Of a stretch of 64,000 bases of DNA, positions 20,613 to 64,000 are shown piece by piece; position 1 is the first letter of the stretch; the number at the start of each line of letters is the position of its first letter. This DNA comes from the human T2T-CHM13v2.0 reference genome, Homo sapiens: NCBI GenBank assembly GCA_009914755.4, contig CP086569.2, positions 1-64,000 on the forward strand, read 5' to 3'. The notes below the pieces were generated by a model, which did not search any database, was not told the origin of the DNA, and saw nothing but the letters and a program-made list of their open reading frames with translations. The position numbers were made by a program, and so were the translations under genes.

Positions 20613-20613
20613 A

Positions 20614-20900
20614 AGGCTGAATGTGGTAGCTTACCCCTGTAATCCGAGCACTTTGGGAGGCCAAAGCAGGACGATTACTTGAGCTCAGAAGTGTGAGACC
20701 AGCCTGGACAACTTGGTGAGACCCCATCTCTACTAGAAATTTTTTTTTAATTGGCTGAGTGTGATGGTGTGCACCTATAATCCCCAGATACTCAGGAGGC
20801 TGAGGCAAGAGGATTGCTTGAGCCTAGGAGCGGGGGGCTGTGGTGAGCCATGATGGTACCATTGCACTCCAGCCTGGGTGACAGAGTGAGACCCTGCCTC
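20614..20900 (+). mobile_element. Older, more diverged Alu, sense, directly after the L1 3' end.
   Basis: ggctgaatgtggtagcttacccctgtaatccgagcactttgggaggccaaagcaggacgattacttgagctcagaagtgtgagaccagcctggacaacttggtgagaccccatctctactagaaattttttttt...gcactccagcctgggtgacagagtgagaccctgcctcaaaaaaaaaaaaaaa. Confidence 0.88.
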
Positions 20901-21063
20901 AAAAAAAAAAAAAAATTAAATTAAGAAAAATTTAAAAGGCCAGGCTAATGATATATTTCTTTTATTAATAAACGTGGGAACCTTAATTTAACATAATGTC
21001 AATAAACATGATTATGGTTCTTCCAAATTTGGGGTCCCTGGTGAGAGAAAAAGAATAAGATAG

Positions 21064-21372
<309 letters not shown>

Positions 21373-21824
21373 TCAGGGTGAAGAATTTGGATACTGCTTG
21401 ACTGGAGGCCACCTGGGGCCACTTCAGCTCTAGTTTCTGTGGTTTACGGCCACAGTGGTGTCTTCCCTGCAACGTTCTCGTGGGTGCCGTATTGACAAAA
21501 CATTAAAACGAGATGGGGTCCCTGCGAGACTCCCGAGGGAGGGAGCAGGAAGATCCGTGCGGCACCGCGAAGGTACAGCATGTTCTCCACAACTCTCCCA
21601 GGCCACAAAGAAAGATGAGTCAGTGGGCTCTGAATTCTCCAGCACAGACAGGGGACGAGTCAAAGGGCTCCCAATCGGACTTGAAGAGATCACGCAGGAA
21701 GTCCTGACGTTCACGGCGAGCAGGGCTCTGTGTAGGCCAACATGCCAGCACTGTGAGGATAATATTTTTTAATCCCCCGTTTCCTTGAGCGGCCCCAGAA
21801 AACTTACACACACCCTGTTCTGCA

Positions 21825-24800
21825 GACTCCTGGGAGTGTAGGTCTCATTAAGGGCAGATAGAGACCAGACTGTGCAACCTTTAGAATCTGCATTGGGCCT
21901 AGGTCTCATTGAGGGCAGGTAGAGAGCCGACTGTGCAACCTTTAGAGTCTGCATTGGGCCAAGGTCTCATTGAGGTCAGATAGAGAGCACACTGTGCAAC
22001 CTTTAGAGACTGCATTGAGCCTGGGTCTCATTGAGGACAGATAGAGAGCAGACTGTGCAACCTTTAGAGTCTGCATTGGGCCTACGTCTCATTGAGGGCA
22101 GATAGAGAACAGACGGTGCAACCTTTACAGTCTGCATTGGGCCTAGGTCTCATTGAGGGCAGGTAGAGAGCCGACTGTACAACCTTTAGAGTCTGCATTG
22201 GGCCTAGGTCTCATTGAGGGCAGATAGAGAGCAGACGGTGCAACCTTTAGAGTCTGCATTGGGCCTAGGTCTCATTGAGGACAGATAGAGAGCAGACTGT
22301 GCAACCTTTAGAGACTGCATTGAGCCTGAGTCTCATTGAGGACAGATAGAGAGCAGACTGTGCAACCATTAGAGTCTGCATTGGGCCTAGGTCTCATTGA
22401 GGGCACATAGAGAGCAGACTGTGCAACCTTTAGAGTCTGCATTGGGCCTAGGTCTCATTGAGGACAGATAGAGAGCAGACTGTGCAACCTTTAGAGTCTG
22501 CATTGGGTCTAGGGCCCATTGAGGGCAGACAGAGAGCAGACTGTGCAAACTTTAGAGTCAGCATTGGGCCTAGGTCTCATTGAAGACAGATAGAGAGCAG
22601 ACTGTGCAACCTTTAGAGTCCGAATTGGGCCTCGGTCTCATTGAGGACCGATGGAGAGCAGACTGTGCAACCTTTAGAGTCTGCATTGGGCCTGGGTCTC
22701 ACTGAGGACAAATAGAGAGCAGACTGTGCAACCTTTAGGGACTGCATTGGACCTAGGTCTCATTGAGGACAGATAGAGAGCAGACTAGGCAACCTTTAGA
22801 GTCGGCACTGGGCCTAGGTCTCATTGAGGACACATATAGAGCAGACTGTGCAACCTTTACAGTCTGCATTGGGCCTGGGTCTCATTGAGGACAGATAGAG
22901 ACCAGACTGTGCAACCTTTAGAGTCTGCATTGGGCCTAGGTCTCATTGAGGGCAGATAGAGAGCAGACTGTGCAACCTTTAGAGTCTGCACTGGGCCTAG
23001 GTCTCATTGAGGACAGATAGAGAGCAGACTGTGCAACCTTTAGAGTCTGCATTGGGCCTAGGTCTCATTGAGAGCAGATAGAGAGCATACTGTGCAACCT
23101 TTAGAGTCGGCATTGGGCCTAGGTCTCATTGAGGACAGATAGAGACCAGACTGTGCAACCTTTAGAGTCTGCATTGGGCCTAGGTCTCATTGAGGACAGA
23201 TAGAGAGCAGACTAGGCAACCATTAGAGTCGGCACTGGTCCTAGGTCTCATTGAGGACAGATATAGAGCAGACTGTGCAACCTTTAGAGTCTGCATTGTG
23301 CCTGGGTCTCATTGAGGACAGATAGAGAGCAGACTGTGCAACCTTTAGAGTCTGCACTGGGCCTAGGTCTCATTGAGGACAGATAGAGAGCAGACTGTGC
23401 AACCTCTAGAGTCTGCATTGGGCCTAGGTCTCATTGAGGGCATTTAGAGAGCAGACTGCGCAACCTTTAGAGTCTGCATTGGGCCTAGGTCTCATTGAGA
23501 GCAGATAGAGAGCACACTGTGCAACCACTAGAGTCGGCATTGGGCCTAGGTCTCATTGAGGACAGATAGAGACCAGACTGTGCAAACTTTAGAGTCTGCA
23601 TTGGGCCTAGGTCTCATTGAGGACAGATAGAGGGCAGACTGTGCAACCTTTAGAGTCTGCATTGGGCCTAGGTCTCATTGTGGACCGATACAGAGCAGAC
23701 TGTGCAACCTTTAGAGTCTGCACTGGGCCTAGGTCTCATTGAGGGCAGATAGAGAGCACACTGTGTAACCTTTAGAGTCTGCATAGGGCCTCGGTCTCAT
23801 TGAGGACCGATAGAGAGCAGACTGTGCAATCTTTAGAGTCTGCATTGGGCCTGGGTCTCATTGAAGACAGATAGAGACCAGACTGTGCAACCTTTAGAGT
23901 TTGCATTGGACCTAGGTCTCATTGAGGGCAGATAGAGAGCAAACTGTGCAACCTTTAGAGTCTGCATTGGGCCTAGGTCTCATTGAGGACAGATAGAGAG
24001 CAGACTGTGCAACCTTTAGAGTCTGCACTGGGCCTAGGTCTCTTTGAGGACAGACAGAGAGCAGACTGTGCAAACTTTAGAGTCTGCACTGGGCCTAGGT
24101 GTCATTGAGGACAGAAAGAGACCAGACTGTGCAACCTTTAGAGTCTGCATTGGGCCTAGGTCTCCTTGAGGTCAGATAGACAGCAGACTGTGCAACCTTT
24201 AGAGTCTGCATTGGGCCTAGGTCTAATTGCGGACAGATAGAGAGCAGACTATGCAACGTTTAGAGTCTGCATTGGGCCTGGGTCTCATTCAGGACAGATA
24301 GAGAGCAGACTGTGCAACCTTTAGAGTCTCTATTGGGCCTAGGTCTCATTGAGGACAGATAGAGAGCGGACTGTGCAACCTTTAGAGTCTGCATTGGGCC
24401 TAGGTCTCATTGAGGGCAGATAGAGAGCAGGCTCGGCAACCCTTAGAGTCTGCATTGGGCCTAGATCTTATTGAGGACAGATAGAGAGCATACTATGCAA
24501 CCTTTAGAGTCTGCATTGGGCCTAGGTCTCATTGAGGACACATAGAGAGCAGACTGTGCAACCTTTAGAGTCTGCATTGGGCCTATGTCTCATTGAGGAC
24601 AGTTAGAGAGCAGACTGTGCAACCTTTAGAGTCTGCATTTGGCCTAGGTCTCATTGAGGACAGAAACAGACCAGAGTGTGCAACCTTTAGAGTCAGCATT
24701 GGGCCTAGGTCTCATTGAGGACAGATAGAGAGCAGACTGTAGAAACTTTATAGTCTGCATTGGGCCTAGGTCTCATTGAGGTCAGATAGAGAGCAGACTG

Positions 24801-27800
24801 TGCAAGCTTTAGCGTCTGCACTTGGCCTAGGTCTCATTGAGGACAGATAGAGAGCAGACTGTGCAAACTCTAGAGTCTGCATTGGGCCTAGGTCTCATTG
24901 AGGGCAGATAGAGACCAGACTATGCAACGTTTAGAGTCTGCATTGGGCCTAGGTCTCATTGAGGGCAGTTAGAGAGCAGACTGTGCAACCTTTAGAGTCT
25001 GCATTGGGCCTAGGTCTCATTGAGAGCAGATAGAGAGCACACTGTGCCAACTTTAGAGTCGGCATTGGGCCTAGGTCTCATTGAGGACAGATAGAGACCG
25101 GACTGTGCAACCTTTAGAGTCTGCATTGGGCCTACGTCTCATTGAGGACAGATAGAGAGCAGACTAGGCAACCATTAGAGTCGGCACTGGTCCTAGGTCT
25201 CATTGAGGACAGATATAGAGCAGACTGTGCAACCTTTAGAGTCTGCATTGGGCCTGGGTCTCATTGAGGACAGATAGCGACCAGACTGTGCAACCTTTAG
25301 AGTCTGCATTGGGCTTAGGTCTCATTGAGGGCAGTTAGAGAGCAGACTGTGCAACCTTTAGAGTCTGCATTGGGCCTAGGTCTCATTGAGAGCAGATAGA
25401 GAGCACACTGTGCAACCTCTAGAGTCGGCATTGGGCCTAGGTCTCATTGAGGACAGATAGAGACCAGACTGTTGAAACTTTAGAGTCTGCATTGGGCCTA
25501 GGTCTCATTGAGGACAGATAGAGGGCAGACTGTGCAACCTTTAGAGTCTACAATGGGCCTAGGTATCAGTGAGGACAAATAGAGAGGAGACTGTGCAACC
25601 TTTAGAGTCTGCACTGGCCCTAGGTCTCTTTGAGGACAGACAGAGAGCAGAATGTGCAAACTTTAGAGTCTGCACTGGGCCTAGGTCTCATTGAGGACAG
25701 ATAGAGACCAGACTGTGCAACCTTTAGAGTCTGCATTGGGCCTAGGTCTCCTTGAGGTCAGACAGACAGCAGACTCTGCAACCTTTAGAGTCTGCATTGG
25801 GCCTAGGTCTAATTGCGGACAGATAGACAGCAGACTGTGCAACGTTTAGAGTCTGCATTGGGCCTAGGTCTAATTGCGGACAGATAGAGAGCAGACTATG
25901 CAACGTTTAGAGTCTGCATTGGGCCTGGGTCTCATTGAGGACAGATAGAGAGCAGACTGTGCAACCTTTAGGGTCTCTATTGGGCCTAGGTCTCATTGAG
26001 GACAGATAGGGAGCGGACTGTGCAACCTTTAGAGTCTGCATTGGGCCTAGGTCTCATTGAGGGCAGATAGAGAGCAGGCTCGGCAACCCTTAGAGTCTGC
26101 ATTGGGCCTAGATATCATTGAGGACAGATAGAGAGCATGCTATGCAACCTTTAGAGTCTGCACTGGGCCTAGGTCTCATTGAGGACACATAGAGAGCAGA
26201 CTGTGCAACCTTTAGAGTCTGCATTGGGCCTATGTCTCATTGAGGACAGTTAGAGAGCAGACTGTGCAACCTTTAGAGTCTGCATTTGGCCTAGGTCTCA
26301 TTGAGGACAGAAAGAGACCAGAGTGTGCAAACTTTAGAGTCTGCATTGGGCCTAGGTCTCATTGAGGACAGATAGAGAGCAGACTGTAGAACCTTTATAG
26401 TCTGCATTGGGCCTAGGTCTCATTGAGGTCAGATAGAGAGCAGACTGTGCAAGCTTTAGAGTCTGCACTTGTCCTAGGTCTCATTGAGGACAGATAGAGA
26501 ACAGACTGTGCAACCTTTAGAGTCTGCATTGGGCCTAGGTCTCATTGAGGGCAGTTAGAGAGCAGACTGTGCAAACTTTAGAGTCTGCATTGGGCCTAGG
26601 TCTCATTGAGAGCAGATAGAGAGCACACTGTGCAAACTCTAGAGTCGGCATTGGGCCTAGGTCTCATTGAGGACAGATAGAGACCAGACTGTGCAAACTT
26701 TAGAGTCTGCATTGGGCCTAGGTCTCATTGAGGACAGATAGAGGGCAGACTGTGCAACCTTTAGAGTCTGCATTGGGCCTAGGTCTCATTGAGGACAGAT
26801 AGAGAGCAGACTTTGCAAACTTTAGAGTCTGCACTGGGCCTAGGTCTCATTGAGGGCATATAGAGACCATACTGTGCAAACTTTAGAGTCTGCATTGGGT
26901 CTAGGTCTCACTGAGGAGAGATAGAGAGCAGACTTTGCAAACTTCAGAGTCTGCATTAGGTCTAGGTCTCACTGAGGACTGATAGAGAGCAGACTATGCA
27001 ACTTTAGAGTCTGCCTGGCCCTAGGTCTCATTGAGGACAGATAGAGAGCAGACTGCGCAAACTTTAGAGTCTGCATTGGGCCTAGGTCTCACTGAGGACA
27101 GATAGAGAGCACACTGTGTAACCTTTAGAGTTTGCAAAGGGCCTCGGTCTCATTGAGGACCGATAGAGAGCAGACTGTGCAACCTTTAGAGTCTGCATTG
27201 GGCCTGGGTCTCATTGAGGAAAAACAGAGAGCAGACTGTGCAACCTTTAGAGTCTGCATTGGGCCTAGGTCTCATTGAGGGCAGATAGAGAGCAGACTGT
27301 GCAACCTTTAGAGTCTGCACTAGGGCTAGGTCTCATCGAGGACAGATAGAGAGCAGACTGTGCAACATTTAGAGTCTGCATTGGACCTAGGTCTCACTGA
27401 GGACAGATAGAGAGCAGACTATGCAAACTTTACAGTCTGCACTGGGCCTAGGTCTCATTGAGGACAGATAGAGAGCAGACTGTGCAACCTTTACAGTCTG
27501 CATTGGGCCTGGGTCTCATTCAGGAGAGATAGAGACCAGAATGTGCAACCTTTAGAGTTTGCATTGGGCCTAGGTCTCTTGAGAGCAGATAGAGAGCAGA
27601 CTGTGCAACCTTTACAGTCTGCATTGGGCCTAGGTCTCATTGAGGGCCGATAGAGAGCAGACTGTGGAAACTTTAGAGTCTGCACTGGGCCTAGGTCTGA
27701 TTGAGGACACATAGAGAGCAGACTGTGCAACCTTTAGAGTCTGCATTTGGCCTAGGTCTCATTGAGGACAGATGGAGAGCACACTGTGCAACCTTTAGAG

Positions 27801-30800
27801 TCCGCATTGGGCCTAGGTCTCATTGAGGACAGATAGAGACCAGACTGTGCAACCTTTAGAGTTTGCATTGGGCCTAGGTCTCATTGAGGGCAGATAGAGA
27901 GCAGACTGTGCAACCTTTAGAGTCTGCATTGGGCCTAGGTCTCATTGAGGACCGATAGAGAGCAGACTGTGCAACCTTTAGACTCTGCATTGGGCCTGGG
28001 TCTCATTGAGGACAAATAGAGAACAGACTGTGCAACCTTTAGAGTCTGCATTGGGCCTAGGTATCAGTGAGGACAGATAGAGAGGAGACTGTGCAACCTT
28101 TAGAGTCTGCACTGGGCCTAGGTCTCTTTGAGGACAGACAGAGAGCAGACTGTGCAAACTTTAGAGTCTGCACTGGGCCTAGGTGTCATTGAGGACAGAT
28201 AGAGACCAGACTGTGCAACCTTTAGAGTCTGCATTGGGCCTAGGTCTCCTTGAGGTCAGATAGACAGCAGAATCTGCAACCTTTAGAGTCTGCATTGGGC
28301 CTAGGTCTAATTGCGGACAGATAGACAGCAGACTGTGCAACGTTTAGAGTCTGCATTGGGCCTAGGTCTAATTGCGGACAGATAGAGAGCAGACTATGCA
28401 ACGTTTAGAGTCTGCATTGGGCCTGGGTCTCATTGAGGACAGATAGAGAGCAGACTGTGCAACCTTTAGAGTCTCTATTGGGCCTAGGTCTCATTGAGGA
28501 CAGATAGGGAGAGGACTGTGCAACCTTTAGAGTCTGCATTGGGCCTAGGTCTCATTGAGGGCAGATAGAGAGCAGGCTCGGGAACCCTTAGAGTCTGCAT
28601 TGGGCCTAGATCTCATTGAGGACAGATAGAGAGCATACTATGCAACCTTTAGAGTCTGCACTGGGCCTAGGTCTCATTGAGGACACATAGAGAGCAGACT
28701 GTGCAACCTTTAGAGTCTGCATTGGGCCTATGTCTCATTGAGGACAGTTAGAGAGCAGGCTGTGCAACCTTTACAGTCTGCATTTGGCCTAGGTCTCATT
28801 GAGGACAGAAAGAGACCAGAGTGCGCAAACTTTAGAGTCTGCATTGGGCCTAGGTCTCATTGAGGACAGATAGAGAGCAGACTGTAGAACCTTTATAGTC
28901 TGCATTGGGCCTAGGTCTCATTGAGGTCAGATAGAGAGCAGACTGTGCAAGCTTTAGAGTCTGCACTTGGCCTAGGTCTCATTGAGGACAGATAGAGAAC
29001 AGACTGTGCAACCTTTAGAGTCTGCATTGGGCCTAGGTCTCATTGAGGGCAGTTAGAGAGCAGACTGTGCAACCTTTAGAGTCTGCATTGGGCCTAGGTC
29101 TCATTGAGAGCAGATAGAGAGCACACTGTGCAACCTCTAGAGTCGGCATTGGGCCTAGGTCTCATTGAGGACAGATAGAGACTAGACTGTGCAAACTTTA
29201 GAGTCTGCATTGGGCCTAGGTCTCATTGAGGACAGATAGAGGGCAGACTGTGCAACCTTTAGAGTCTGCATTGAGCCTAGGTCTCATTGAGGACAGATAG
29301 AGAGCAGACTGTGCAACCTTTCGAGTCTGCACTGGGCCTAGGTCTCATTGAGGGCATATAGAGACCATACTGTGCAAACTTTAGAGTCTGCATTGGGTCT
29401 AGGTCTCACTGAGGAGAGATAGAGAGCAGACTTTGCAAACTTTAGAGTCTGCATTAGGTCTAGGTCTCACTGAGGACTGATAGAGAGCAGACTATGCAAC
29501 TTTAGAGTCTGCACTGGCCCTAGGTCTCATTGAGGACAGATAGAGAGCAGACTGCGCAAACTTTAGAGTCTGCATTGGGTCTAGGTCTCATTGAGGACAG
29601 ATAGAGAGCACACTGTGTAACCTTTAGAGTCTGCATAGAGCCTCGGTCTCATTGAGGACCGATAGAGAGCAGACTGAGCAACCTTTAGAATCTGCATTGG
29701 GCCTAGGTCTCATTGAGGGCAGGTAGAGAGCCGACTGTGCAACCTTTAGAGTCTGCATTGGGCCAAGGTCTCATTGAGGTCAGATAGAGAGCACACTGTG
29801 CAACCTTTAGAGACTGCATTGAGCCTGGGTCTCATTGAGGACAGATAGAGAGCAGACTGTGCAACCTTTAGAGTCTGCATTGGGCCTAGGTCTCATTGAG
29901 GGCACATAGAGAGCAGACTGCACAACCTTTAGAGTCTGCATTGGGCCTACGTCTCATTGAGGGCAGATAGAGAACAGACGGTGCAACCTTTACAGTCTGC
30001 ATTGGGCCTAGGTCTCAATGAGGGCAGGTAGAGAGCCGACTGTACAACCTTTAGAGTCTGCATTGGGCCTAGGTCTCATTGAGGGCAGATAGAGAGCAGA
30101 CGGTGCAACCTTTAGAGTCTGCATTGGGCCTAGGTCTCATTGAGGACAGATAGAGAGCAGACTGTGCAAACTTTAGAGACTGCATTGAGCCTGAGTCTCA
30201 TTGAGGACAGATAGAGAGCAGACTGTGCAACCATTAGAGTCTGCATTGGGCCTAGGTCTCATTGAGGGCACATAGAGAGCAGACTGTGCAACCTTTAGAG
30301 TCTGCATTGGGCCTAGGTCTCATTGAGGACAGATAGAGAGCAGACTGTGCAACCTTTAGAGTCTGCATTGGGTCTAGGGCTCATTGAGGGCAGACAGAGA
30401 GCAGACTGTGCAAACTTTAGAGTCTGCATTGGGCCTAGGTCTCATTGAAGACAGATAGAGAGCAGACTGTGCAACCTTTAGAGTCCGAATTGGGCCTCGG
30501 TCTCATTGAGGACCGATGGAGAGCAGACTGTGCAACCTTTAGAGTCTGCATTGGGCCTGGGTCTCACTGAGGACAAATAGAGAGCAGACTGTGCAACCTT
30601 TAGGGACTGCATTGGACCTAGGTCTCATTGAGGACAGATAGAGAGCAGACTAGGCAACCTTTAGAGTCGGCACTGGGCCTAGGTCTCATTGAGGACACAT
30701 ATAGAGCAGACTGTGCAACCTTTACAGTCTGCATTGGGCCTGGGTCTCATTGAGGACAGATAGAGACCAGACTGTGCAACCTTTAGAGTCTGCATTGGGC

Positions 30801-33800
30801 CTAGGTCTCATTGAGGGCAGATAGAGAGCAGACTGTGCAACCTTTAGAGTCTGCACTGGGCCTAGGTCTCATTGAGGACAGATAGAGAGCAGACTGTGCA
30901 ACCTTTAGAGTCTGCATTGGGCCTAGGTCTCATTGAGAGCAGATAGAGAGCATACTGTGCAACCTTTAGAGTCGGCATTGGGCCTAGGTCTCATTGAGGA
31001 CAGATAGAGACCAGACTGTGCAACCTTTAGAGTCTGCATTGGGCCTAGGTCTCATTGAGGACAGATAGAGAGCAGACTAGGCAACCATTAGAGTCGGCAC
31101 TGGTCCTAGGTCTCATTGAGGACAGATATAGAGCAGACTGTGCAACCTTTAGAGTCTGCATTGTGCCTGGGTCTCATTGAGGACAGATAGAGAGCAGACT
31201 GTGCAACCTTTAGAGTCTGCACTGGGCCTAGGTCTCATTGAGGACAGATAGAGAGCAGACTGTGCAACCTCTAGAGTCTGCATTGGGCCTAGGTCTCATT
31301 GAGGGCATTTAGAGAGCAGACTGCGCAACCTTTAGAGTCTGCATTGGGCCTAGGTCTCATTGAGAGCAGATAGAGAGCACACTGTGCAACCTCTAGAGTC
31401 GGCATTGGGCCTAGGTCTCATTGAGGACAGATAGAGACCAGACTGTGCAAACTTTAGAGTCTGCATTGGGCCTAGGTCTCATTGAGGACAGATAGAGGGC
31501 AGACTGTGCAACCTTTAGAGTCTGCATTGGGCCTAGGTCTCATTATGGACCGATACAGAGCAGACTGTGCAACCTTTAGAGTCTGCACTGGGCCTAGGTC
31601 TCATTGAGAGCAGATAGAGAGCACACTGTGCAAACTTTAGAGTCGGCATTGGGCCTAGGTCTCATTGAGGACAGATAGAGACCGGACTGTGCAACCTTTA
31701 GAGTCTGCATTGGGCCTACGTCTCATTGAGGACAGATAGAGAGCAGACTAGGCAACCATTAGAGTCGGCACTGGTCCTAGGTCTCATTGAGGACAGATAT
31801 AGAGCAGACTGTGCAACCTTTAGAGTCTGCATTGGGCCTGGGTCTCATTGAGGACAGATAGCGACCAGACTGTGCAACCTTTAGAGTCTGCATTGGGCTT
31901 AGGTCTCATTGAGGGCAGTTAGAGAGCAGACTGTGCAACCTTTAGAGTCTGCATTGGGCCTAGGTCTCATTGAGAGCAGATAGAGAGCACACTGTGCAAC
32001 CTCTAGAGTCGGCATTGGGCCTAGGTCTCATTGAGGACAGATAGAGACCAGACTGTTGAAACTTTAGAGTCTGCATTGGGCCTAGGTCTCATTGAGGACA
32101 GATAGAGGGCAGACTGTGCAACCTTTAGAGTCTACAATGGGCCTAGGTATCAGTGAGGACAAATAGAGAGGAGACTGTGCAACCTTTAGAGTCTGCACTG
32201 GCCCTAGGTCTCTTTGAGGACAGACAGAGAGCAGAATGTGCAAACTTTAGAGTCTGCACTGGGCCTAGGTGTCATTGAGGACAGATAGAGACCAGACTGT
32301 GCAACCTTTAGAGTCTGCATTGGGCCTAGGTCTCCTTGAGGTCAGACAGACAGCAGACTCTGCAACCTTTAGAGTCTGCATTGGGCCTAGGTCTAATTGC
32401 GGACAGATAGACAGCAGACTGTGCAACGTTTAGAGTCTGCATTGGGCCTAGGTCTAATTGCGGACAGATAGAGAGCAGACTATGCAACGTTTAGAGTCTG
32501 CATTGGGCCTGGGTCTCATTGAGGACAGATAGAGAGCAGACTGTGCAACCTTTAGGGTCTCTATTGGGCCTAGGTCTCATTGAGGACAGATAGGGAGCGG
32601 ACTGTGCAACCTTTAGAGTCTGCATTGGGCCTAGGTCTCATTGAGGGCAGATAGAGAGCAGGCTCGGCAACCCTTAGAGTCTGCATTGGGCCTAGATATC
32701 ATTGAGGACAGATAGAGAGCATGCTATGCAACCTTTAGAGTCTGCACTGGGCCTAGGTCTCATTGAGGACACATAGAGAGCAGACTGTGCAACCTTTAGA
32801 GTCTGCATTGGGCCTATGTCTCATTGAGGACAGTTAGAGAGCAGACTGTGCAACCTTTAGAGTCTGCATTTGGCCTAGGTCTCATTGAGGACAGAAAGAG
32901 ACCAGAGTGTGCAAACTTTAGAGTCTGCATTGGGCCTAGGTCTCATTGAGGACAGATAGAGAGCAGACTGTAGAACCTTTATAGTCTGCATTGGGCCTAG
33001 GTCTCATTGAGGTCAGATAGAGAGCAGACTGTGCAAGCTTTAGAGTCTGCACTTGTCCTAGGTCTCATTGAGGACAGATAGAGAACAGACTGTGCAACCT
33101 TTAGAGTCTGCATTGGGCCTAGGTCTCATTGAGGGCAGTTAGAGAGCAGACTGTGCAAACTTTAGAGTCTGCATTGGGCCTAGGTCTCATTGAGAGCAGA
33201 TAGAGAGCACACTGTGCAAACTCTAGAGTCGGCATTGGGCCTAGGTCTCATTGAGGACAGATAGAGACCAGACTGTGCAAACTTTAGAGTCTGCATTGGG
33301 CCTAGGTCTCATTGAGGACAGATAGAGGGCAGACTGTGCAACCTTTAGAGTCTGCATTGGGCCTAGGTCTCATTGAGGACAGATAGAGAGCAGACTTTGC
33401 AAACTTTAGAGTCTGCACTGGGCCTAGGTCTCATTGAGGGCATATAGAGACCATACTGTGCAAACTTTAGAGTCTGCATTGGGTCTAGGTCTCACTGAGG
33501 AGAGATAGAGAGCAGACTTTGCAAACTTCAGAGTCTGCATTAGGTCTAGGTCTCACTGAGGACTGATAGAGAGCAGACTATGCAACTTTAGAGTCTGCCT
33601 GGCCCTAGGTCTCATTGAGGACAGATAGAGAGCAGACTGCGCAAACTTTAGAGTCTGCATTGGGCCTAGGTCTCACTGAGGACAGATAGAGAGCACACTG
33701 TGTAACCTTTAGAGTTTGCATAGGGCCTCGGTCTCATTGAGGACCGATAGAGAGCAGACTGTGCAACCTTTAGAGTCTGCATTGGGCCTGGGTCTCATTG

Positions 33801-54800: not shown

Positions 54801-57800
54801 CCACCTTTAGAGTCTGCATTGGGCCTGGGTCTCATGGAGGAGAAATAGAGAGCAGACTGTGCAACCTTTAGAGTCTGCATTGGGCCTAGGTCTCATTGAG
54901 GACAGATGGAGAGCAGACTGTGCAACCTTTAGAGTCTGCATTGGGTCTATGTCTCATTGAGGGCAGATAGAGACCAGACTGTGCAACCTTTAGAGTTTGC
55001 ATTGGGCCTAGGTCTCATTGAGGGCAGATAGAGAGCAGACTGTGCCACCTTTAGAGTCTACATTGGGCCTAGGTCTCATTGAGGACAGATAGAGAGCAGA
55101 CTGTGCAACCTTTATAGTCTGCACTGGGCCTAGGTCTCTTTGAGGACAGACAGAGAGCAGACTGTGCAAACTTTAGAGTCTGCACTGGGCCTAGGTGTCA
55201 TTGAGGACAGATAGAGACCAGACTGTGCAACCTTTAGAGTCTGCATTGGGCCTAGGTCTCCTTGAGGTCAGATAGGCAGCAGACTGTGCAACCTTTAGAG
55301 TCTGCATTGGGTCTAGGTCTAATTGCGGACAGATGGAGAGCAGACTATGCAAAGTTTACAGTCTGCATTGGGCCTGGGTCTCATTGAGGACAGATAGAGA
55401 GCAGACTGTGCAACCTTTAGAGTCTCTATTGGGCCTAGGTCTCATTGAGGACAGATAGAGAGCAGACTGTGCAACCTTTAGAGTCTGCATTGGGCCTAGG
55501 TCTCATTGAGGGCAGATAGAGAGCAGGCTCGGCAACCCTTAGAGTCTGCGTTGGGCTTAGATCTCATTGAGGACAGATAGAGAGCATACTATGCAACCTT
55601 TAGAGTCTGCACTGGGCCTAGGTCTCATTGAGGACACATAGAGAGCAGACTGTGGAACCTTTAGAGTCTGCATTGGGCCTATGTCTCAATGAGGACAGTT
55701 AGAGAGCAGACTGTGCAACCTTTAGAGTCTGCATTGGGCCTAGGTCTCATTGAGGACAGATAGAGAGCAGACTGTAGAACCTTTATAGTCTGCATTGGGC
55801 CTAGGTCTCATTGAGGTCAGATAGAGAGCAGACTGTGCAAGCTTTAGAGTCTGCACTTGGCCTAGGTCTCATTGAGGACAGATAGAGAGCAGACTGTGCA
55901 ACCTTTAGAGTCTGCATTGGGCCTAGGTCTTATTGAGGGCAGATAGAGACCAGACTATGCAACGTTTAGAGTCTGCATTGGGCCTAGGTGTCATTGAGGG
56001 CAGTTAGAGAGCAGACTGTGCTACCTTTAGAGTCTGCATTAGGCCTAGGTCTCATTGAGAGCAGATAGAGAGCACACTGTGCAAACTTTAGAGTCGGCAT
56101 TGGGCCTAGGTCTCATTGAGGACAGATAGAGACCGGACTGTGCAACCTTTAGAGTCTGCATTGGGCCTAGGTCTCATTGAGGACAGATAAAGAGCAGACT
56201 AGGCAACCATTAGAGTCGGCACTGGTCCTAAGTCTCATTGAGGACAGATATAGAGGAGACTGTGTAACCTTTAGAGTCTGCATTGGGCCTGGGTCTCATT
56301 GAGGACAGATAGCGACCAGACTGTGCAACCTTTAGAGTCTGCATTGGGTCTAGGTCTCATTGAGGGCAGTTAGAGAGCAGACTGTGCCACCTTTAGAGTC
56401 TGCATTGGGCCTAGGTCTCATCGACAGCAGATAGAGAGCACACTGTGCAACCTCTAGAGTCGGCATTGGGCCTAGGTCTCATTGAGGACAGATAGAGACC
56501 AGACTGTTAAAACTTTAGAGTCTGCATTGGGCCTAGGTCTAATTGAGGACAGATAGAGGGCAGACTGTGCAACCTTTAGAGTCTGCATTGGGCCTAGGTC
56601 TCATTGAGGGCAGATAGAGAGCAGGCTCGGGAACCCTTAGAGTCTGCATTGGGCCTAGATCTCATTGAGGACAGATAGAGAGCATACTATGCAACCTTTA
56701 GAGTCTGCATTGGGCCTAGGTCTCATTGAGAGCACATAGAGAGCAGACTGTGCAACCTTTAGAGTCTGCATTGGGCCTATGTCTCATTGAGGACAGTTAG
56801 AGAGCAGGCTGTGCAACCTTTACAGTCTGCATTTGGCCTAGGTCTCATTGAGGACAGAAAGAGACCAGAGTGCGCAAACTTTAGAGTCTGCATTGGGCCT
56901 AGGTCTCATTGAGGACAGATAGAGAGCAGACTGTAGAACCTTTATAGTCTGCATTGGGCCTAGGTCTCATTGAGGTCAGATAGAGAGCAGACTGTGCAAG
57001 CTTTAGAGTCTGCACTTGGCCTAGGTCTCATTGAGGACAGATAGAGAACAGACTGTGCAACCTTTAGAGTCTGCATTGGGCCTAGGTCTCATTGAGGGCA
57101 GTTAGAGAGCAGACTGTGCAACCTTTAGAGTCTGCATTGGGCCTAGGTCTCATTGAGAGCAGATAGAGAGCACACTGTGCAACCTCTAGAGTCGGCATTG
57201 GGCCTAGGTCTCATTGAGGACAGATAGAGACCAGACTGTGCAAACTTTAGAGTCTGCATTGGGCCTAGGTCTCATTGAGGACAGATAGAGGGCAGACTGT
57301 GCAACCTTTAGAGTCTGCATTGAGCCTAGGTCTCATTGAGGACAGATAGAGAGCAGACTGTGCAACCTTTCGAGTCTGCACTGGGCCTAGGTCTCATTGA
57401 GGGCATATAGAGACCATACTGTGCAAACTTTAGAGTCTGCATTGGGTCTAGGTCTCACTGAGGAGAGATAGAGAGCAGACTTTGCAAACTTTAGAGTCTG
57501 CATTAGGTCTAGGTCTCACTGAGGACTGATAGAGAGCAGACTATGCAACTTTAGAGTCTGCACTGGCCCTAGGTCTCATTGAGGACAGATAGAGAGCAGA
57601 CTGCGCAAACTTTAGAGTCTGCATTGGGTCTAGGTCTCATTGAGGACAGATAGAGAGCACACTGTGTAACCTTTAGAGTCTGCATAGAGCCTCGGTCTCA
57701 TTGAGGACCGATAGAGAGCAGACTGTGCCACCTTTAGAGTCTGCATTGGGCCTGGGTCTCACTGAGGAGAAATAGAGAGCAGACTGTGCAACCTTTAGAG

Positions 57801-60800
57801 TCTGCATTGGGCCTAGGTCTCATTGAGGACAGATGGAGAGCAGACTGTGCAACCTTTAGAGTCTGCATTGGGCCTAGGTCTCATTGAGGGCAGATAGAGA
57901 GCAGACTGTGCAACCTTTAGAGTCTGCATTGGGCCTAGGTCTCATTGAGAGCAGATAGAGAGCATACTGTGCAACCTTTAGAGTCGGCATTGGGCCTAGG
58001 TCTCATTGAGGACAGATAGAGACCAGACTGTGCAACCTTTAGAGTCTGCATTGGGCCTAGGTCTCATTGAGGACAGATAGAGAGCAGACTATGCAACCAT
58101 TAGAGTCGACACTGGTCCTAGGTCTCATTGAGGACAGATATAGAGCAGACTGTGCAACCTTTAGAGTCTGCATTGTGCATGGGTCTCATTGAGGACAGAT
58201 AGAGAGCAGACTAGGCAACCATTAGAGTCGACACTGGTCCTAGGTCTAATTGAGGACAGATATAGTGCAGACTGTGCAACCTTTAGAGTCTGCATTGGGC
58301 CTGGGTCTCATTGAGGACAGATAGAGACCAGACTGTGCAACCTTTAGAGTCTGCACTGGGCCTAGGTCTCATTGAGGACAGATAGAGGGCAGACTGTGCA
58401 ACCTTTAGAGTCTGCATTGGGCCTAGGTCTCATTGAGGACAGATAGAGAGCAGACTGTGCAACCTTTAGAGTCTGCACTGGGCCTAGGTCTCATTGAGGG
58501 CAGATAGAGACCATACTGTGCAACCTTTAGAATCTGCATTGGGTCTAGGTCTCACTGAGGAGAGATAGAGAGCAGACTTTGCAAACTTTAGAGTCTGCAT
58601 TGGGTCTAGGTCTCACTGAGGACTGATAGAGAGCAGACTATGCAACCTTTAGAGTCTGCACTGGCACTAGGTCTCATTGAGGACAGATACAGAGCAGACT
58701 GCGCAAACTTTAGAGTCTGCATTGGGCCTAGGTCTCATTGAGGACAGATAGAGAGCACACTGTGTAACCTTTAGAGTCTGCATAGGGCCTCGGTCTCTAT
58801 GAGGACCGATAGAGAGCAGACTGTGCAACCTTTAGAGTCTGCATTGGGCCTGGGTCTCATTGAGGACAAATAGAGAGCAGACTGTGCAACCTTTAGAGTC
58901 TGCATTGGGCCTAGGTCTCATTGAGGAGAGATGGAGAGCAGACTGTGCAACCTTTAGAGTCTGCATTGGGCCTAGGTCTCATTGAGAGCAGATAGAGAGC
59001 AGAGTGTGCAACCTTTAGAGTCTGCATTGGGCCTAGGTCTCATTGAGGGCAGATAGAGACCAGACTGTGCAACCTTTAGAGTCTGCATTGGGCCTAGGTC
59101 TCATTGAGAGCAGATAGAGAGCAGACTGTGCAACCTTTAGAGTCTGCATTGAGCCTAGGTCTCATTGAGGAGAGATAGAGAGCAGACTGTGCAACCTTTA
59201 GAGTCTGCATTGGGCCTAGGTCTCATTGAGGACAGATGGAGAGCACACTGTGCAACCTTTAGAGTCCGCATTGGGCCTAGGTGTCATTGAGGACAGATAG
59301 AGACCAGACTGTGCAACCTTTAGAGTCTGCATTGGGCCTAGGTCTCCTTGAGGTCAGATAGACAGCAGACTCTGCAACCTTTAGAGTCTGCATTGGGCCT
59401 AGGTCTAATTGCGGACAGATAGACAGCAGACTGTGCAACGTTTAGAGTCTGCATTGGGCCTAGGTCTAATTGCGGACAGATAGAGAGCAGACTATGCAAC
59501 GTTTAGAGTCTGCATTGGGCCTGGGTCTCATTGAGGACAGATAGAGAGCAGACTGTGCAACCTTTAGAGTCTCTATTGGGCCTAGGTCTCATTGAGGACA
59601 GATAGGGAGCGGACTGTGCAACCTTTAGAGTCTGCATTGGGCCTAGGTCTCATTGACGGCAGACAGAGAGCAGGCTCGGCAACCCTTAGAGTCTGCATTG
59701 GGCCTAGATCTCATTGAGGACAGATAGAGAGCATACTATGCAACCTTTAGAGTCTGCACTGGGCTTAGTTCTCATTGAGGAAACATAGAGAGCAGACTGT
59801 GCAACCTTTAGAGTCTGCATTAGGCCTATGTCTCATTGAGGACAGTTAGAGAGCAGACTGTGCTACCTTTAGAGTCTGCATTTGGCCTAGGTCTCATTGA
59901 GTACAGAAAGAGACCAGAGTGTGCAACCTTTAGAGTCTGCATTGGGCCTGGGTCTCATTGAGGACAGATAGAGAGGAGACTGTAGAACCTTTATAGTCTG
60001 CATTGGGCCTAGGTCTCATTGAGGTCAGATAGGGAGCAGACTGGGCAAGCTTTAGAGTCTGCACTTGGCCTAGGTCTCATTGAGGACAGATAGAGAACAG
60101 ACTGTGCAACCTTTAGAGTCTGCATTGGGCCTAGGTCTCATTGAGGGCAGTTAGAGAGCAGACTGTGCAACCTTTAGAGTCTGCATTGGGCCTAGGTCTC
60201 ATTGAGAGCAGATAGAGAGCACACTGTGCAACCTCTAGAGTCGGCATTGGGCCTAGGTCTCATTGAGGACAGATAGAGACCAGACTGTGCAAACTTTAGA
60301 GTCTGCATTGGGCCTAGGTCTCATTGAGGACAGATACAGGGCAGACTGTGCAACCTTTAGAGTCTGCATTGGGCCTAGGTCTCATTGAGGTCAGATAGAG
60401 AGCAGACTGTGCAACCTTTAGAGTCTGCACTGGGCCTAGGTCTCATTGAGGGCAGATAGAGACCATACTGTGCAACCTTTAGAGTCTGCATTGGGTCTAG
60501 GTCTCACTGAGGAGAGATAGAGAGCAGACTTTGCAAACTTTAGAGTCTGCATTAGGTCTAGGTCTCACTGAGGACTGATAGAGAGCAGATTATGCAACCT
60601 TTAGAGTCTGCACTGGCCCTAGGTCTCATTGAGGACAGATAGAGAGCAGACTGCGCAAACTTTAGAGTCTGCATTGGGCCTAGGTCTCATTGAGGACAGA
60701 TAGAGAGCACACTGTGTAACCTTTAGAGTCTGCATAGGGCCTCGGTCTCATTGAGGACCGATAGAGAGCAGACTGTGCCACCTTTAGAGTCTGCATTGGG

Positions 60801-63800
60801 CCTGGGTCTCATTGAGGAGAAATAGAGAGCAGACTGTGCAACCTTTAGAGTCTGCATTGGGCCTAGGTCTCATTGAGGACAGATGGAGAGCAGACTGTGC
60901 AACCTTTAGAGTCTGCATTGGGCCTAGGTCTCATTGAGGGCACATAGAGAGCAGACTGTGCAACCTTTAGAGTCTGCATTGGGCCTAGGTCTCATTGAGA
61001 GAAGATAGAGAGCATACAGTGCAACCTTTAGAGTCGGCATTGGGCCTAGGTCTCATTGAGGACAGATAGAGACCAGACTGTGAAACCTTTAGAGTCTGCA
61101 TTGGGCCTAGGTCTCATTGAGGACAGATAGAGAGCAGAGTAGGCAACCATTAGAGTCGGCACTGGTCCTAGGTCTCATTGAGGACAGATATAGAGCAGAC
61201 TGTGCAACCTTTAGAGTCTGCATTGGGCCTGGGTCTCATTGAGGACAGATAGAGAGCAGACTGTGCAACCTTTAGAGGCTGCACTGGGCCTAGGTCTCAT
61301 TGAGGACAGATAGAGGGCAGACTGTGCAACCTTTAGAGTCTGCATTGGGCCTAGGTCTCATTGAGGACCGATAGAGAGCAGACTGTGCAACCTTTAGAGT
61401 CTGCACTGGGCCTAGGTCTCATTGAGGGCAGATAGAGACCATACTGTGCAACCTTTAGAGTCTGCATTGGGCCTAGGTCTCACTGAGGAGAGATAGAGAG
61501 CACACTGTGTAACCTTTAGAGACTGCATAGGGCCTCGGTCTCATTGAGGACCGATAGAGAGCAGACTGTGCCACCTTTAGAGTCTGCATTGGGCCTGGGT
61601 CTCATTGAGGACAAATAGAGAGCAGACTGTGCAACCTTTAGAGTCTGCATTGGGCCTAGGTCTCATTGAGGACAGATGGAGAGCAGACTGTGCAACCTAT
61701 AGAGTCTGCATTGGGCCTAGGTCTCATTGAGGACAGATGGAAAGCAGACTGTGCAACCTTTAGAGTCTGCATTGGACCTAGGTCTCATTGAGGACAGATA
61801 GAGAGCAGACTATGCAAACTTTAGAGGCTGGACTGAGCCTAGGTCTCATTGAGGACAGATAGAGAGCAGACTGTGCAACCTTTACAGTCTGCATTGGGCC
61901 TGGGCCTCATTCAGGACAGATAGAGACCAGACTGCGCAACCTTTAGAGTCTGCATTGGGCCTAGGTCTCATTGAGAGTAGATAGAGAGCAGACTGTGCAA
62001 CCTTTAGAGTCTACATTGGGCCTAGGTCTCATTGAGGGCAGATAGAGAGCAGACTGTGCAACCTTTAGAGTCTGCACTTGGCCTAGGTCTCATTGAGGAC
62101 ACATAGAGAGCAGACTGTGCAACCTTTAGAGTCTGCATTGGGCCTAGGTCTCGTTGAGGGCAGATAGAGAGCAGACTGTGCAAACTTTAGAGTTTGCATT
62201 GGGCCTAGGTCTCATTGAGGAGAGATAGAGAGCAGACTGTGCAACCTTTAGAGTCTGCATTGGGCCTAGGTCTCATTGAGGACAGATGGAGAGCACACTG
62301 TGCAACCTTTAGAGTCCGCATTGGGCCTAGGTCTCATTGAGGACAGATAGAGACCAGACTGTGCAACCTTTAGTGTTTGCATTGGGCCTAGGTCTCATTG
62401 AGGGCAGATAGAGAGCAGAATGTGCAACCCTTAGAGTCTGCATTGGGCCTAGGTCTCATTGAGGACAGATAGAGAGCAGACTGTGCAACCTTTAGAGTCT
62501 GCACTGGGCCTAGGTCTCTTTGAGGACAGACAGAGAGCAGACTGTGCAAACTTTAGAGTCTGCACTGGGCCTAGGTCTCATTGAGGACACATAGAGAGCA
62601 GACTGTGCAACCTTTAGAGTCTGCATTGGGCCTATGTCTCATTGAGGACAGTTAGAGAGCAGACTGTGCAAACTTTAGAGTCTGCATTTGGCCTACGTCT
62701 CATTGAGGACAAAAAGAGACCAGAGTGTGCAACCTTTAGAGTCGGCATTGGGACTCGGTCTCATTGAGGACAGATAGAGAGCAGACTGTAGAACCTTCAT
62801 AGTCTGCATTGGGCCTAGGTCTCATTGAGGTCAGATAGAGAGCAGACTGTGCAAGCTTTAGAGTCTGCACTTGGCCTAGGTCTCATTGAGGACAGATAGA
62901 GAGCAGACTGTGCAAACTTTAGAGTCTGCATTGGGCCTAGGTCTCATTGAGGGCAGATAGAGACCAGACTATGCAACGTTTAGAGTCTGCATTGGGCCTA
63001 GGTGTCATTGAGGGCAGTTAGAGAGCAGACTGTGCAACCTTTAGAATCTGCATTGGGCCTAGGTCTCATTGAGAGCAGATAGAGAGCACACTGTGCAAAC
63101 TTTAGAGTCGGCATTGGGCCTAGGTCTCATTGAGGACAGATAGAGACCGGACTGTGCAACCTTTAGAGTCTGCATTGGGCCTAGGTCTCATTGAGGACAG
63201 ATAGAGAGCACACTAGGCAACCATTAGAGTCCGCACTGGTCCTAGGTCTCATTGAGGACAGATATAGAGCAGACTGTGCAACCTTTAGAGTCTGCATTGG
63301 GCCTGGGTCTCATTGAGGACAGATAGCGACCAGACTGTACAACCTTTAGAGTCTGCATTGGGCTTAGGTCTCATTGAGGGCAGTTAGAGAGCAGACTGTG
63401 CAACCTTTAGAGTCTGCATTGGGCCTAGGTCTCATTGAGAGCAGATAGAGAGCACACTGTGCAACCTCTAGAGTCGGCATTGGGCCTAGGTCTCATTGAG
63501 GACAGATAGAGACCAGACTGTTGAAACTTTAGAGGCTGCATTGGGCCTAGGTCTCATTGAGGACAGATAGAGGGCAGACTGTGCAACCTTTAGAGTCTGC
63601 AATGGACCTAGGTCTCATTGAGGACAGATACGGAGCAGACTGTGCAAACTTTAAAGTCTGCACTGAGCCTAGGTCTCATTGAGGGCAGATAGAGACCAGA
63701 CTGTGCAACCTTTAGAGTCTGCATTGGGTCTAGGTCTCACTGAGGCGAGATAGAGAGCAGACTTTGCAAACTTTAGAGTCTCCATTGGGTCTAGGTCTCA

Positions 63801-64000
63801 CTGAGGACTGACAGGAGCAGACTATGCAACCTTTAGAGTCTGCACTGGCCCTAGGTCTCATTGAGGACAGATAGAGAGCAGACTGCGCAAACTTTAGAGT
63901 CTGCATTGGGCCTAGGTCTCACTGAGGACAGATAGAGAGCACACTGTGTAACCTTTAGAGTCTGCATAGAGCCTCGGTCTCATTGAGGACAGATAGAGAG
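21825..64000. repeat. Large satellite array with 61-bp monomer. Consensus GCCTAGGTCTCATTGAGGACAGATAGAGAGCAGACTGTGCAACCTTTAGAGTCTGCATTGG. About 690 monomers, more than 42 kb, extending beyond the window end. A 61-bp pseudoautosomal tandem repeat is on record (DXYS20, as I recall).
   Basis: Period 61 measured directly (e.g. 22446 to 22507). Monomers differ at a limited set of positions (ggacag/gggcag/gagcag, agagagc/agagacc, gcaacc/gcaaac, cattggg/cactggg, occasional CpG variants such as gaccgat and gtcggca). Higher-order repeats: exact 240-bp blocks recur at 27491, 34075 and 41574 (offsets 6584 and 7499 bp). Marker ctaattgcggaca recurs at 2.5-5 kb spacings in the first half and at ~13.96 kb spacing in the second half. 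Confidence 0.97.

What the first reader, a model, noticed from the sequence alone, without database searches (positions are those of the whole stretch)
21825..64000. More than 42 kb array of a 61-bp satellite beginning ~16 kb inside the telomere and running off the window
About 690 monomers of GCCTAGGTCTCATTGAGGACAGATAGAGAGCAGACTGTGCAACCTTTAGAGTCTGCATTGG are present. This satellite bears no resemblance to the telomere-associated 61-bp TERRA repeat, to alpha satellite, or to the GC-rich minisatellite upstream. It is moderately GC-balanced with sparse CpGs that appear as monomer variants (gaccgat, gtcggca, caacgttt, aattgcgg), which are useful as methylation and variant markers. The array starts abruptly after an Alu cluster with a degenerate first unit (~21825-21848). 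Its true length, proximal boundary and any flanking genes lie outside the window. A 61-bp pseudoautosomal tandem repeat is on record (DXYS20, as I recall). If this array is that locus, its full base-level higher-order organisation may not have been described. The 79-aa ORFs at 27491, 34075 and 41574 are artefacts of the repeat.
Basis: partly seen in the sequence, partly recalled or inferred. Interest (0 to 1): 0.7.

Follow-up and report, generated by a model that had tools for sequence, protein, structure and literature searches.

The report
Known 61-bp pseudoautosomal tandem array
This is a real, more than 42 kb non-coding array of a 61-bp repeat about 16 kb inside the human Xp/Yp (PAR1) telomere, almost certainly the long-known hypervariable locus DXYS20; it is an ordinary, already catalogued repeat.

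Summary
Tandem Repeats Finder reports one period-61 array at 21839..64000 (691.4 copies) that runs off the window.

The window is the human Xp/Yp chromosome end. It has 5.66 kb of (TAACCC)n, followed by exact matches to the XpYp-specific STELA primers XpYpB2 and XpYpE2. The PAR1 placement is therefore supported by sequence. The name DXYS20 (Page et al. 1987) fits the unit length and position, but no held paper let me verify it.

There is no regular higher-order repeat: neighbouring monomers are no more alike than random pairs (about 89.5%). Instead, about 290 founder monomers were copied in register as nested blocks. An older tier is 97-98% identical and a younger tier, with blocks of 3-6 kb, is 99.8-99.95% identical.

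I found no gene, Rfam family, conserved hairpin, PRDM9 13-mer, CTCF core, minisatellite core or G4 motif. The consensus has no CpG (observed/expected 0.11). The three 79-aa ORFs are one accident copied three times.

Best reading: a neutral satellite that changes by in-register unequal exchange. Already known; low interest.

The parts
21839..64000 (.). 61-bp tandem array: 691 monomers plus a 27-bp partial unit. It runs off the window, so its proximal end is not seen.
   Evidence: TRF; monomer decomposition; per-position profile
21839..29947 (.). Founder stretch, monomers 0-132. It holds the template for most later blocks. It also contains an older internal duplication of a 27-monomer module at 41-monomer spacing, about 98.1-98.4% identical (monomers 61-87 vs 102-128).
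   Evidence: block map; older tier
29948..37568 (.). Second copy of the large unit: monomers 133-159 match 4-30, 160-240 match 52-132, and 241-257 match 4-20. Identity is 99.6-99.8%.
37996..43725 (.). Third copy: monomers 265-358 match 34-127 at 99.83% (10 differences in 5734 bp).
43726..52386 (.). Second founder stretch (monomers 359-500). It is the template of the roughly 14 kb repeat seen again at 57692-63973.
52387..55984 (.). Tandem 56-monomer duplication: monomers 501-559 match 445-503 at 99.94% (2 differences in 3599 bp).
56595..63973 (.). Second copy of the roughly 14 kb unit: monomers 570-587 match 110-127, 588-642 match 359-413, and 643-690 match 416-463. Identity is 99.87-99.93%. 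It continues beyond the window.
21360..21838 (.). Distal junction: 479 bp of single-copy, non-Alu sequence. Its similarity to the monomer is at chance level.
21066..21359 (+). Last Alu of a cluster of seven Alu-like copies spanning 17231-21359.
1..5659 (+). Telomere tract, (TAACCC)n, 942 units at 99% matches.
5659..5678 (+). Exact match to the XpYp-specific primer XpYpB2, abutting the telomere. Used as a locus anchor.
   Evidence: primer sequence in PMC4686832
6048..6066 (-). Exact match to the STELA primer XpYpE2, pointing towards the telomere. Used as a locus anchor.
   Evidence: primer sequence in PMC4686832
27491..27730 (-). 79-aa ORF artefact. Further copies lie at 34075-34314 and 41574-41813. 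Each spans a 60-bp monomer carrying the same 1-bp deletion.

Best explanation
This is a non-coding, long tandem array (a minisatellite-type unit at satellite scale) in the most distal part of human PAR1. It is very probably the hypervariable 61-bp locus DXYS20. It encodes no protein or structured RNA, and it carries none of the four sequence motifs I scanned for.

The array changes mechanically. Misaligned but in-register homologous exchange, between sister chromatids or between X/Y or X/X homologues, together with replication-associated duplication, copies or deletes runs of tens to hundreds of monomers. The visible 42 kb was built this way, in at least three tiers:
- old, diverged monomers, about 89.5% identical in pairs;
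- a module of about 25-38 monomers re-used at 41- or 50-monomer spacing, 97-98% identical;
- young blocks of 3-6 kb, 99.8-99.95% identical, at offsets of 3.4-14 kb.

CpG loss implies that the array has long been methylated in the germ line.

Shown here: the anatomy, the Xp/Yp location, and the absence of coding, RNA-family or motif signals. Inferred: the exchange mechanism, the methylation history and functional neutrality. From memory: the locus name.
For: **Array and register**
- The array is real and strongly periodic.
- 678 of 691 monomers are exactly 61 bp. The 13 short monomers have only five distinct sequences, which I read as about four independent 1-bp deletions propagated by block copying. 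None lies at a block boundary, and there are no insertions, so every duplication kept the 61-bp phase.

**No regular HOR**
- Mean monomer identity at lags 1-40 is 0.892-0.898, against an overall mean of 0.895. The peaks lie at lags 231, 229, 108, 123, 41 and 56, above every one of 200 order shuffles.

**Block structure**
- 667 of 691 monomers lie in duplicated segments of at least 8 monomers.
- Collapsing duplicates of at least 99.5% identity leaves 290 founder positions, present 1-4 times each.
- The older tier is 97-98% identical. There are 98 diagonal segments, against 0 in each of five shuffled controls.

**No function-like signal**
- The only ORFs of at least 60 aa that lie wholly within the array are three copies of one 79-aa accident, with no Pfam hit. 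Two further ORFs of 61-63 aa sit at the distal junction.
- No Rfam family in the whole window.
- The 7-bp inverted repeat in the consensus folds no better than shuffles (z = -0.8). It is intact in only 341 of 691 monomers and shows 0 compensatory changes.
- Zero matches to the PRDM9 13-mer, CTCF core, minisatellite core or G4 pattern.
- Every monomer position but one varies.
- CpG observed/expected is 0.11, against 0.49 in the flank.

**Location**
- Telomere tract plus exact XpYp STELA primer matches.
Against: - Neutrality is an inference from absence of signals. A protein could recognise the 61-mer without matching any motif I scanned.
- The near-perfect conservation of the 61-bp length, and one invariant position (A39), could reflect constraint rather than only in-register exchange.
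- The array sits where a meiotic role is conceivable: the distal PAR, like mouse mo-2.
- Hypervariability between haplotypes could not be tested, because the public collections available here hold no copy.
- The DXYS20 name rests on recollection.
Confidence: 0.85

Rival explanations
1. The array is a cis-acting meiotic platform and the human counterpart of the mouse mo-2 minisatellite. It would concentrate the pro-DSB factors REC114, MEI4, MEI1, ANKRD31 and IHO1, and remodel the PAR axis, so that the obligate X-Y crossover forms.
For: - In mouse, a roughly 20 kb tandem array (mo-2) in the PAR recruits these proteins in proportion to copy number.
- This array is also a tandem array of tens of kb in the distal PAR, close to the telomere.
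- The ape sex-chromosome paper raises the same idea for other PAR-flanking satellites.
Against: - There is no experimental link for humans in the held literature.
- mo-2 is a 31-bp GC-rich unit. This unit is 61 bp, 49% GC and CpG-poor.
- Human PAR1 crossovers are reported to be positioned by PRDM9 (PMC4102438). The array has no PRDM9 13-mer.
- The GC-rich 31-33-bp minisatellites nearer the telomere (9016-10200 and 13724-15225) resemble mo-2 more in unit length and composition than this array does.
Confidence: 0.06
2. The array is a chromatin or regulatory element. It would act as a heterochromatin buffer or boundary between the telomere/TERRA region and the PAR1 genes, or as a source of a repeat-derived non-coding RNA.
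For: - It lies between the telomere-proximal CpG-rich minisatellites and the rest of PAR1.
- CpG depletion is compatible with long-term methylation.
Against: - No CTCF core motif.
- No Rfam family.
- No conserved secondary structure.
- No expression or chromatin data can be obtained with these tools.
Confidence: 0.05
3. The multi-kb near-identical blocks are wholly or partly an assembly artefact, either false duplication or collapse within a difficult repeat.
For: - Blocks that are 99.8-99.95% identical over 3-6 kb are the kind of structure assemblers can mis-join.
- PAR1 is reported as hard to assemble.
Against: - The copies differ at specific sites that are shared consistently among three-way copies.
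- The phase is kept throughout.
- A 5.66 kb telomere tract and an intact subtelomere indicate a T2T-grade assembly.
- The older 97-98% tier cannot be an assembly artefact.
Confidence: 0.04
4. The array encodes a repetitive protein, with the 79-aa ORFs as candidates.
For: Three nearly identical 79-aa ORFs lie on the minus strand.
Against: - 61 is not a multiple of 3, so a reading frame passes through all three phases every 183 bp and meets the stop triplets present in the consensus on both strands.
- The only ORFs of at least 60 aa that lie wholly within the 42 kb array are these three, and they are copies of one duplicated block. Each spans the same 1-bp-deleted monomer.
- TTG start codon, no Pfam hit, and no identical product on record.
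Confidence: 0.005

Closest known systems
DXYS20, the hypervariable pseudoautosomal locus of Page et al. 1987 (Genomics 1:243-256). The paper's existence is confirmed; its content is from memory.
   Same: 61-bp tandem unit; distal PAR1 close to the Xp/Yp telomere; long array.
   Different: Nothing is known to differ. Sequence identity with the published repeat could not be checked. What is added here is only the base-level block map of one haplotype.
Mouse mo-2 minisatellite (PAR and the distal ends of chr4, 9 and 13)
   Same: Tandem array of tens of kb in the distal pseudoautosomal region.
   Different: mo-2 has a 31-bp GC-rich unit and is also present on autosome ends. Its function (RMMAI recruitment) is shown experimentally in mouse. 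Here the unit is 61 bp, 49% GC and CpG-poor, with no functional data.
Alpha-satellite-type arrays with regular higher-order repeats (e.g. DXZ1)
   Same: Diverged monomers (about 90% pairwise identity) overlaid by much more similar long-range copies.
   Different: There is no fixed HOR period. Copies occur at irregular offsets (41, 50, 56, 108, 123 and 227-231 monomers) and only 2-4 times each. The array is not centromeric and not AT-rich.
Classical GC-rich hypervariable minisatellites, including the neighbouring 31-33-bp Xp/Yp arrays (DXYS14-type, from memory)
   Same: Unit length is in the minisatellite range. The location is subtelomeric and highly recombining. Internal variant repeats would suit MVR-type mapping.
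   Different: Not GC-rich. No GGGCAGGANG core, no PRDM9 13-mer and no G4 potential. The array is more than 42 kb, beyond the usual minisatellite size.
Subtelomeric 61-29-37 repeats of TERRA promoters
   Same: Coincidence of a 61-bp unit near a telomere.
   Different: Those repeats are CpG-island elements close to the telomere tract (own knowledge). This array is 16 kb away, with CpG observed/expected of 0.11. Direct sequence comparison was not possible.

Membership tests
DXYS20 (pseudoautosomal 61-bp VNTR) | Tandem repeat unit of 61 bp | tested here: met
   TRF period 61; 678 of 691 monomers are exactly 61 bp.
DXYS20 (pseudoautosomal 61-bp VNTR) | Located in distal PAR1 near the Xp/Yp telomere | tested here: met
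   Telomere tract at 1-5659. XpYpB2 and XpYpE2 primers match exactly at 5659-5678 and 6048-6066.
DXYS20 (pseudoautosomal 61-bp VNTR) | Sequence identity with the published DXYS20 / pDP230 repeat | not testable with these tools
   The paper is not held. No held paper mentions DXYS20 or the monomer sequence.
DXYS20 (pseudoautosomal 61-bp VNTR) | Length hypervariability between haplotypes | not testable with these tools
   No other copy was found in the genome, metagenome or viral contig collections.
Satellite with regular higher-order repeat | A fixed multi-monomer period at which identity rises far above neighbouring-monomer identity along the whole array | tested here: not met
   Lags 1-40 are flat at about 0.895. 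Elevated lags are irregular, and each applies to only part of the array.
Classical GC-rich hypervariable minisatellite | GC-rich unit containing the minisatellite core (GGGCAGGANG) or a PRDM9-type motif | tested here: not met
   GC is 49%. There are 0 matches to the core and 0 to CCNCCNTNNCCNC.
mo-2-like meiotic DSB platform | Tandem array of tens of kb in the distal PAR | tested here: met
mo-2-like meiotic DSB platform | 31-bp GC-rich unit | tested here: not met
   The unit is 61 bp and 49% GC. mo-2 is described as a 31-bp GC-rich repeat.
mo-2-like meiotic DSB platform | Accumulation of REC114/MEI4/ANKRD31 and axis remodelling in spermatocytes | not testable with these tools
   Needs cytology or ChIP.
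TERRA-promoter 61-29-37 repeats | CpG-island character and position close to the telomere tract | tested here: not met
   CpG observed/expected is 0.11 and the consensus has no CpG. The array lies 16.2 kb from the telomere.
TERRA-promoter 61-29-37 repeats | Sequence similarity to the 61-bp TERRA repeat | not tested
Protein-coding or structured-RNA gene | Open frame with homologues, or an RNA family or conserved base-pairing | tested here: not met

The most novel reading that the evidence does not exclude
The 61-bp array, alone or together with the neighbouring GC-rich 31-33-bp minisatellites, is the human functional equivalent of mouse mo-2. It would be a copy-number-dependent cis platform that nucleates REC114/MEI4/ANKRD31 assemblies at the tip of PAR1 and so helps to guarantee the obligate X-Y crossover. 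Array-length polymorphism would then be a heritable modifier of XY nondisjunction risk.
Probability: 0.05. Interest if true: 0.8.

Novelty: already known. Interest (0 to 1): 0.15.

Why it matters
As it stands, the finding matters little. The locus has been a mapped pseudoautosomal marker since the 1980s, and complete assemblies already contain it.

Two practical points remain:
- The block map shows that the array is not a simple HOR. It is made of about 290 founder monomers re-used 2-4 times. This gives many internal variant markers, including CpG-bearing ones, for phasing, for validating PAR1 assemblies and for measuring unequal exchange in pedigrees.
- If array length or structure turned out to influence meiotic break formation in PAR1, as mo-2 does in mouse, it would bear on the origin of paternal XY nondisjunction. 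Nothing here supports that beyond position.

Tried and rejected
- **Short HOR or nucleosome-scale period** (3 x 61 = 183 bp). No rise of identity at lags 1-40 monomers, and no consistent short-lag pattern in the 12 major variants.
- **Hairpin or cruciform.** The 7-bp inverted repeat GCAGACT..AGTCTGC (positions 27-33 and 47-53) folds no better than shuffles. It is intact in 341 of 691 monomers, shows 0 compensatory changes, and its stem columns vary as much as the others.
- **Coding.** The only ORFs of at least 60 aa that lie wholly in the array are three copies of one accident, with no Pfam hit and no identical product on record.
- **RNA families.** None in the window at gathering thresholds.
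- **Motifs.** No PRDM9-A 13-mer, CTCF core, minisatellite core or G4 pattern in the array.
- **Origin from flanking sequence or the neighbouring minisatellites.** Only chance 9-mers.
- **Related sequences elsewhere, to find other haplotypes or the proximal junction.** Zero exact matches to the commonest 20-mer in genome contigs, metagenome contigs and viral contigs, and zero to the commonest 24-mer in metagenome contigs. These collections are microbial, so this says nothing about primates.
- **Literature.** 'DXYS20' matched only DXYS201. 'pseudoautosomal' plus '61-bp' gave nothing. The monomer sequence strings gave nothing. The '61-bp tandem repeat' hits are the hTERT VNTR and a 4q HERV-H duplication, both unrelated. 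Page et al. 1987 is not held.
Full report
**1. The observation**

Tandem Repeats Finder reports one array of period 61 from 21839 to the end of the window. It has 691.4 copies, 89% matches between adjacent copies, 0% indels and score 67301.

I cut the array into units by fitting the consensus along the sequence.
- There are 691 complete monomers plus a 27-base partial unit at position 64000.
- 678 monomers are exactly 61 bp, ten are 60 bp and three are 59 bp.
- The mean is 3.5 edits from the consensus (94.2% identity), uniform along the array.
- Only seven monomers equal the consensus.
- There are 231 distinct monomer sequences.
- Only position 39 is invariant; every other position varies.

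Base identity at lag 61 is 0.88, against about 0.20 at off-register lags. Composition is flat, with GC 0.49 and GC skew +0.17 throughout. The array is real and runs off the window.

**2. Details of the finding that need correcting**

- The 338 bp upstream of 21839 has only chance-level similarity to the monomer: local score 14, against a shuffled mean of 15.2. A blastn-short search found only 9-mers. The array therefore begins at 21839. The first unit, 21839-21899, has four edits, and the proposed degenerate unit at 21825-21848 is not supported.
- The last Alu ends at 21359, and 479 bp of single-copy sequence follow it. Seven Alu-like copies lie between 17231 and 21359.
- The CpG statements hold. 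The consensus has no CpG. The array has 275 CpGs (observed/expected 0.11, against 0.49 in the flank) in 224 monomers. The four named variants occur 26, 50, 26 and 20 times.
- The monomer is unrelated to the upstream 31-, 33- and 64-bp repeats.

**3. Where the window comes from**

The window opens with 5659 bp of (TAACCC)n. Two oligonucleotides that I recalled as the XpYp-specific STELA primers match exactly and uniquely.
- XpYpB2 matches at 5659-5678 on the plus strand, abutting the telomere.
- XpYpE2 matches at 6048-6066 on the minus strand, pointing at the telomere from about 400 bp away.

The chance expectation is 0.01 matches for each. The primer names and sequences are printed in PMC4686832. 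The window is therefore the human Xp/Yp end, and the array is in the most distal part of PAR1, 16.2 kb from the telomere.

The name DXYS20 could not be verified. No held paper mentions it. Page et al. 1987 is not held, although its citation is confirmed in a reference list. I put the name at about 0.75-0.8.

The T2T repeat papers say that new satellite arrays were annotated in PAR1. Repeats in PAR1 have therefore already been surveyed in complete assemblies, although I cannot show that this array is one of those annotated.

**4. Internal organisation**

There is no regular higher-order repeat. Mean monomer identity at lags 1-40 is 0.892-0.898, indistinguishable from the mean of all pairs (0.895). 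None of the twelve common variants shows a consistent short period.

Identity does rise at lags of 231, 229, 108, 123, 41 and 56 monomers. These peaks exceed every one of 200 order shuffles.

A monomer-level dot plot shows long diagonal segments:

| Monomers (first copy) | Monomers (second copy) | Length (monomers) | Differences / bp |
|---|---|---|---|
| 52-149 | 160-257 | 98 | 13 / 5978 |
| 34-127 | 265-358 | 94 | 10 / 5734 |
| 160-235 | 283-358 | 76 | 6 / 4636 |
| 341-413 | 570-642 | 73 | 6 / 4453 |
| 445-503 | 501-559 | 59 | 2 / 3599 |
| 414-463 | 641-690 | 50 | 2 / 3050 |

- 667 of 691 monomers lie in duplicated segments of at least 8 monomers.
- Collapsing duplicates of at least 99.5% identity leaves 290 founder positions. 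Of these, 24 are single, 152 double, 93 triple and 21 quadruple.
- The resulting block map has about three copies of a unit of 108-123 monomers in the first half. The second half has two copies of a unit of about 228 monomers, with an internal 56-monomer tandem duplication.
- Beneath this lies an older tier: a module of about 25-38 monomers recurring at 41- or 50-monomer spacing, 97-98.3% identical. There are 98 segments, against none in five shuffled-order controls.

The 13 short monomers have only five distinct sequences, which I read as about four independent 1-bp deletions carried along by the blocks. None is at a block boundary, and there are no insertions. All duplications therefore preserved the 61-bp phase.

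Taking a genome-average mutation rate of about 1.2e-8 per base per generation (own knowledge, and probably too low for PAR1), divergences of 0.06-0.2% correspond to the order of 10^4-10^5 generations. This is a rough inference only.

**5. Tests for a sequence-encoded function**

- **ORFs.** The only ORFs of at least 60 aa wholly inside the array are the three 79-aa ORFs on the minus strand. They differ by one residue. They lie 108 and 123 monomers apart, which are the block offsets. Each spans the same 60-bp monomer, at 27571, 34155 and 41654. Because 61 is not divisible by 3, a frame meets every stop triplet of the monomer once per 183 bp. These ORFs are one accident copied three times. They have no Pfam match and no identical product on record.
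- **RNA.** No Rfam family reaches its gathering threshold anywhere in the window.
- **Secondary structure.** The consensus contains a 7-bp inverted repeat (positions 27-33 and 47-53). Folding is no better than shuffles (z = -0.8 and -0.6). The stem is intact in 341 of 691 monomers, there are no compensatory changes, and the stem columns vary as much as the rest.
- **Motifs.** The array has no match to the PRDM9 13-mer CCNCCNTNNCCNC, the CTCF core, the minisatellite core or a G-quadruplex pattern. The telomere and the GC-rich flank have many G4 matches.

**6. Explanation**

The best-supported reading is a functionally neutral tandem array. It expands, contracts and homogenises by in-register unequal exchange and block duplication, in a region with very high male recombination. 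It has long been methylated, hence the CpG loss.

The anatomy and the location are shown. The mechanism and the neutrality are inferred.

The main alternative worth naming is a mo-2-like meiotic platform. In mouse, a roughly 20 kb array of a 31-bp GC-rich minisatellite in the PAR recruits REC114, MEI4, ANKRD31 and partner proteins in proportion to copy number. The ape sex-chromosome paper floats the same idea for other PAR-flanking satellites. The only shared features here are position and size. The unit length and composition differ, human PAR1 crossovers are reported to be PRDM9-directed, and the array lacks the motif. I give this reading about 5%.

A chromatin-boundary or non-coding-RNA role, and an assembly artefact behind the block pattern, each get a few per cent.

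**7. Comparison and verdict**

- The array meets the two testable defining features of DXYS20: the unit length and the distal PAR1 position.
- It fails the tests for a regular HOR satellite, a classical GC-rich minisatellite, a TERRA-promoter repeat and a gene.
- It is an already known locus.
- Related sequences could not be obtained. The commonest 20-mer has no exact match in the genome, metagenome or viral contig collections, and the commonest 24-mer has none in the metagenome collection. Those collections are microbial.
- Interest is low (0.15).

Noticed in passing
window 7940-10440 and 11990-15550 (third, older partial copy about 18998-19852): The Xp/Yp subtelomere contains a tandem segmental duplication of about 4-5 kb, 94-100% identical in its unique parts. 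Each copy carries a GC-rich 31-33-bp minisatellite (9016-10200 and 13724-15225) followed by a (GACGGAGAGT)n tract (10431-10585 and 15545-15699). The 31-bp array is probably the classical DXYS14 minisatellite (from memory).
   Followed up: partly
window 9636-10200: The 33-bp minisatellite has its own 221-bp higher-order period: 2.6 copies at 95% identity.
   Followed up: no
window 6076-6310: A 64-bp repeat (3.7 copies, 79% matches) lies immediately proximal to the XpYpE2 primer site, within 700 bp of the telomere.
   Followed up: no
window 1-5659: The telomere tract has 942 TAACCC units at 99% matches. This indicates a telomere-to-telomere-grade assembly. Variant repeats at the proximal end were not examined.
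   Followed up: no
window 14001-16000: This is the most GC-rich part of the window (GC 0.69). The flank as a whole (5660-21838) has 45 G4-pattern matches on the minus strand, so the G-rich strand is the same as that of the telomere.
   Followed up: no
window 21839-64000: Substitutions relative to the consensus are more often transversions than transitions: 1345 against 1072 cells, and 84 against 50 variant types. This is unusual for human DNA. It is probably inflated by block amplification of a few variants such as G27C, C40A and T51G.
   Followed up: partly
window 21620-21954: Two short minus-strand ORFs (63 and 61 aa) lie at the array's distal junction: 21620-21811 ends just before it and 21769-21954 spans it. 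The 63-aa ORF was scanned and has no Pfam hit; the 61-aa ORF was not scanned. Both are most likely chance.
   Followed up: partly
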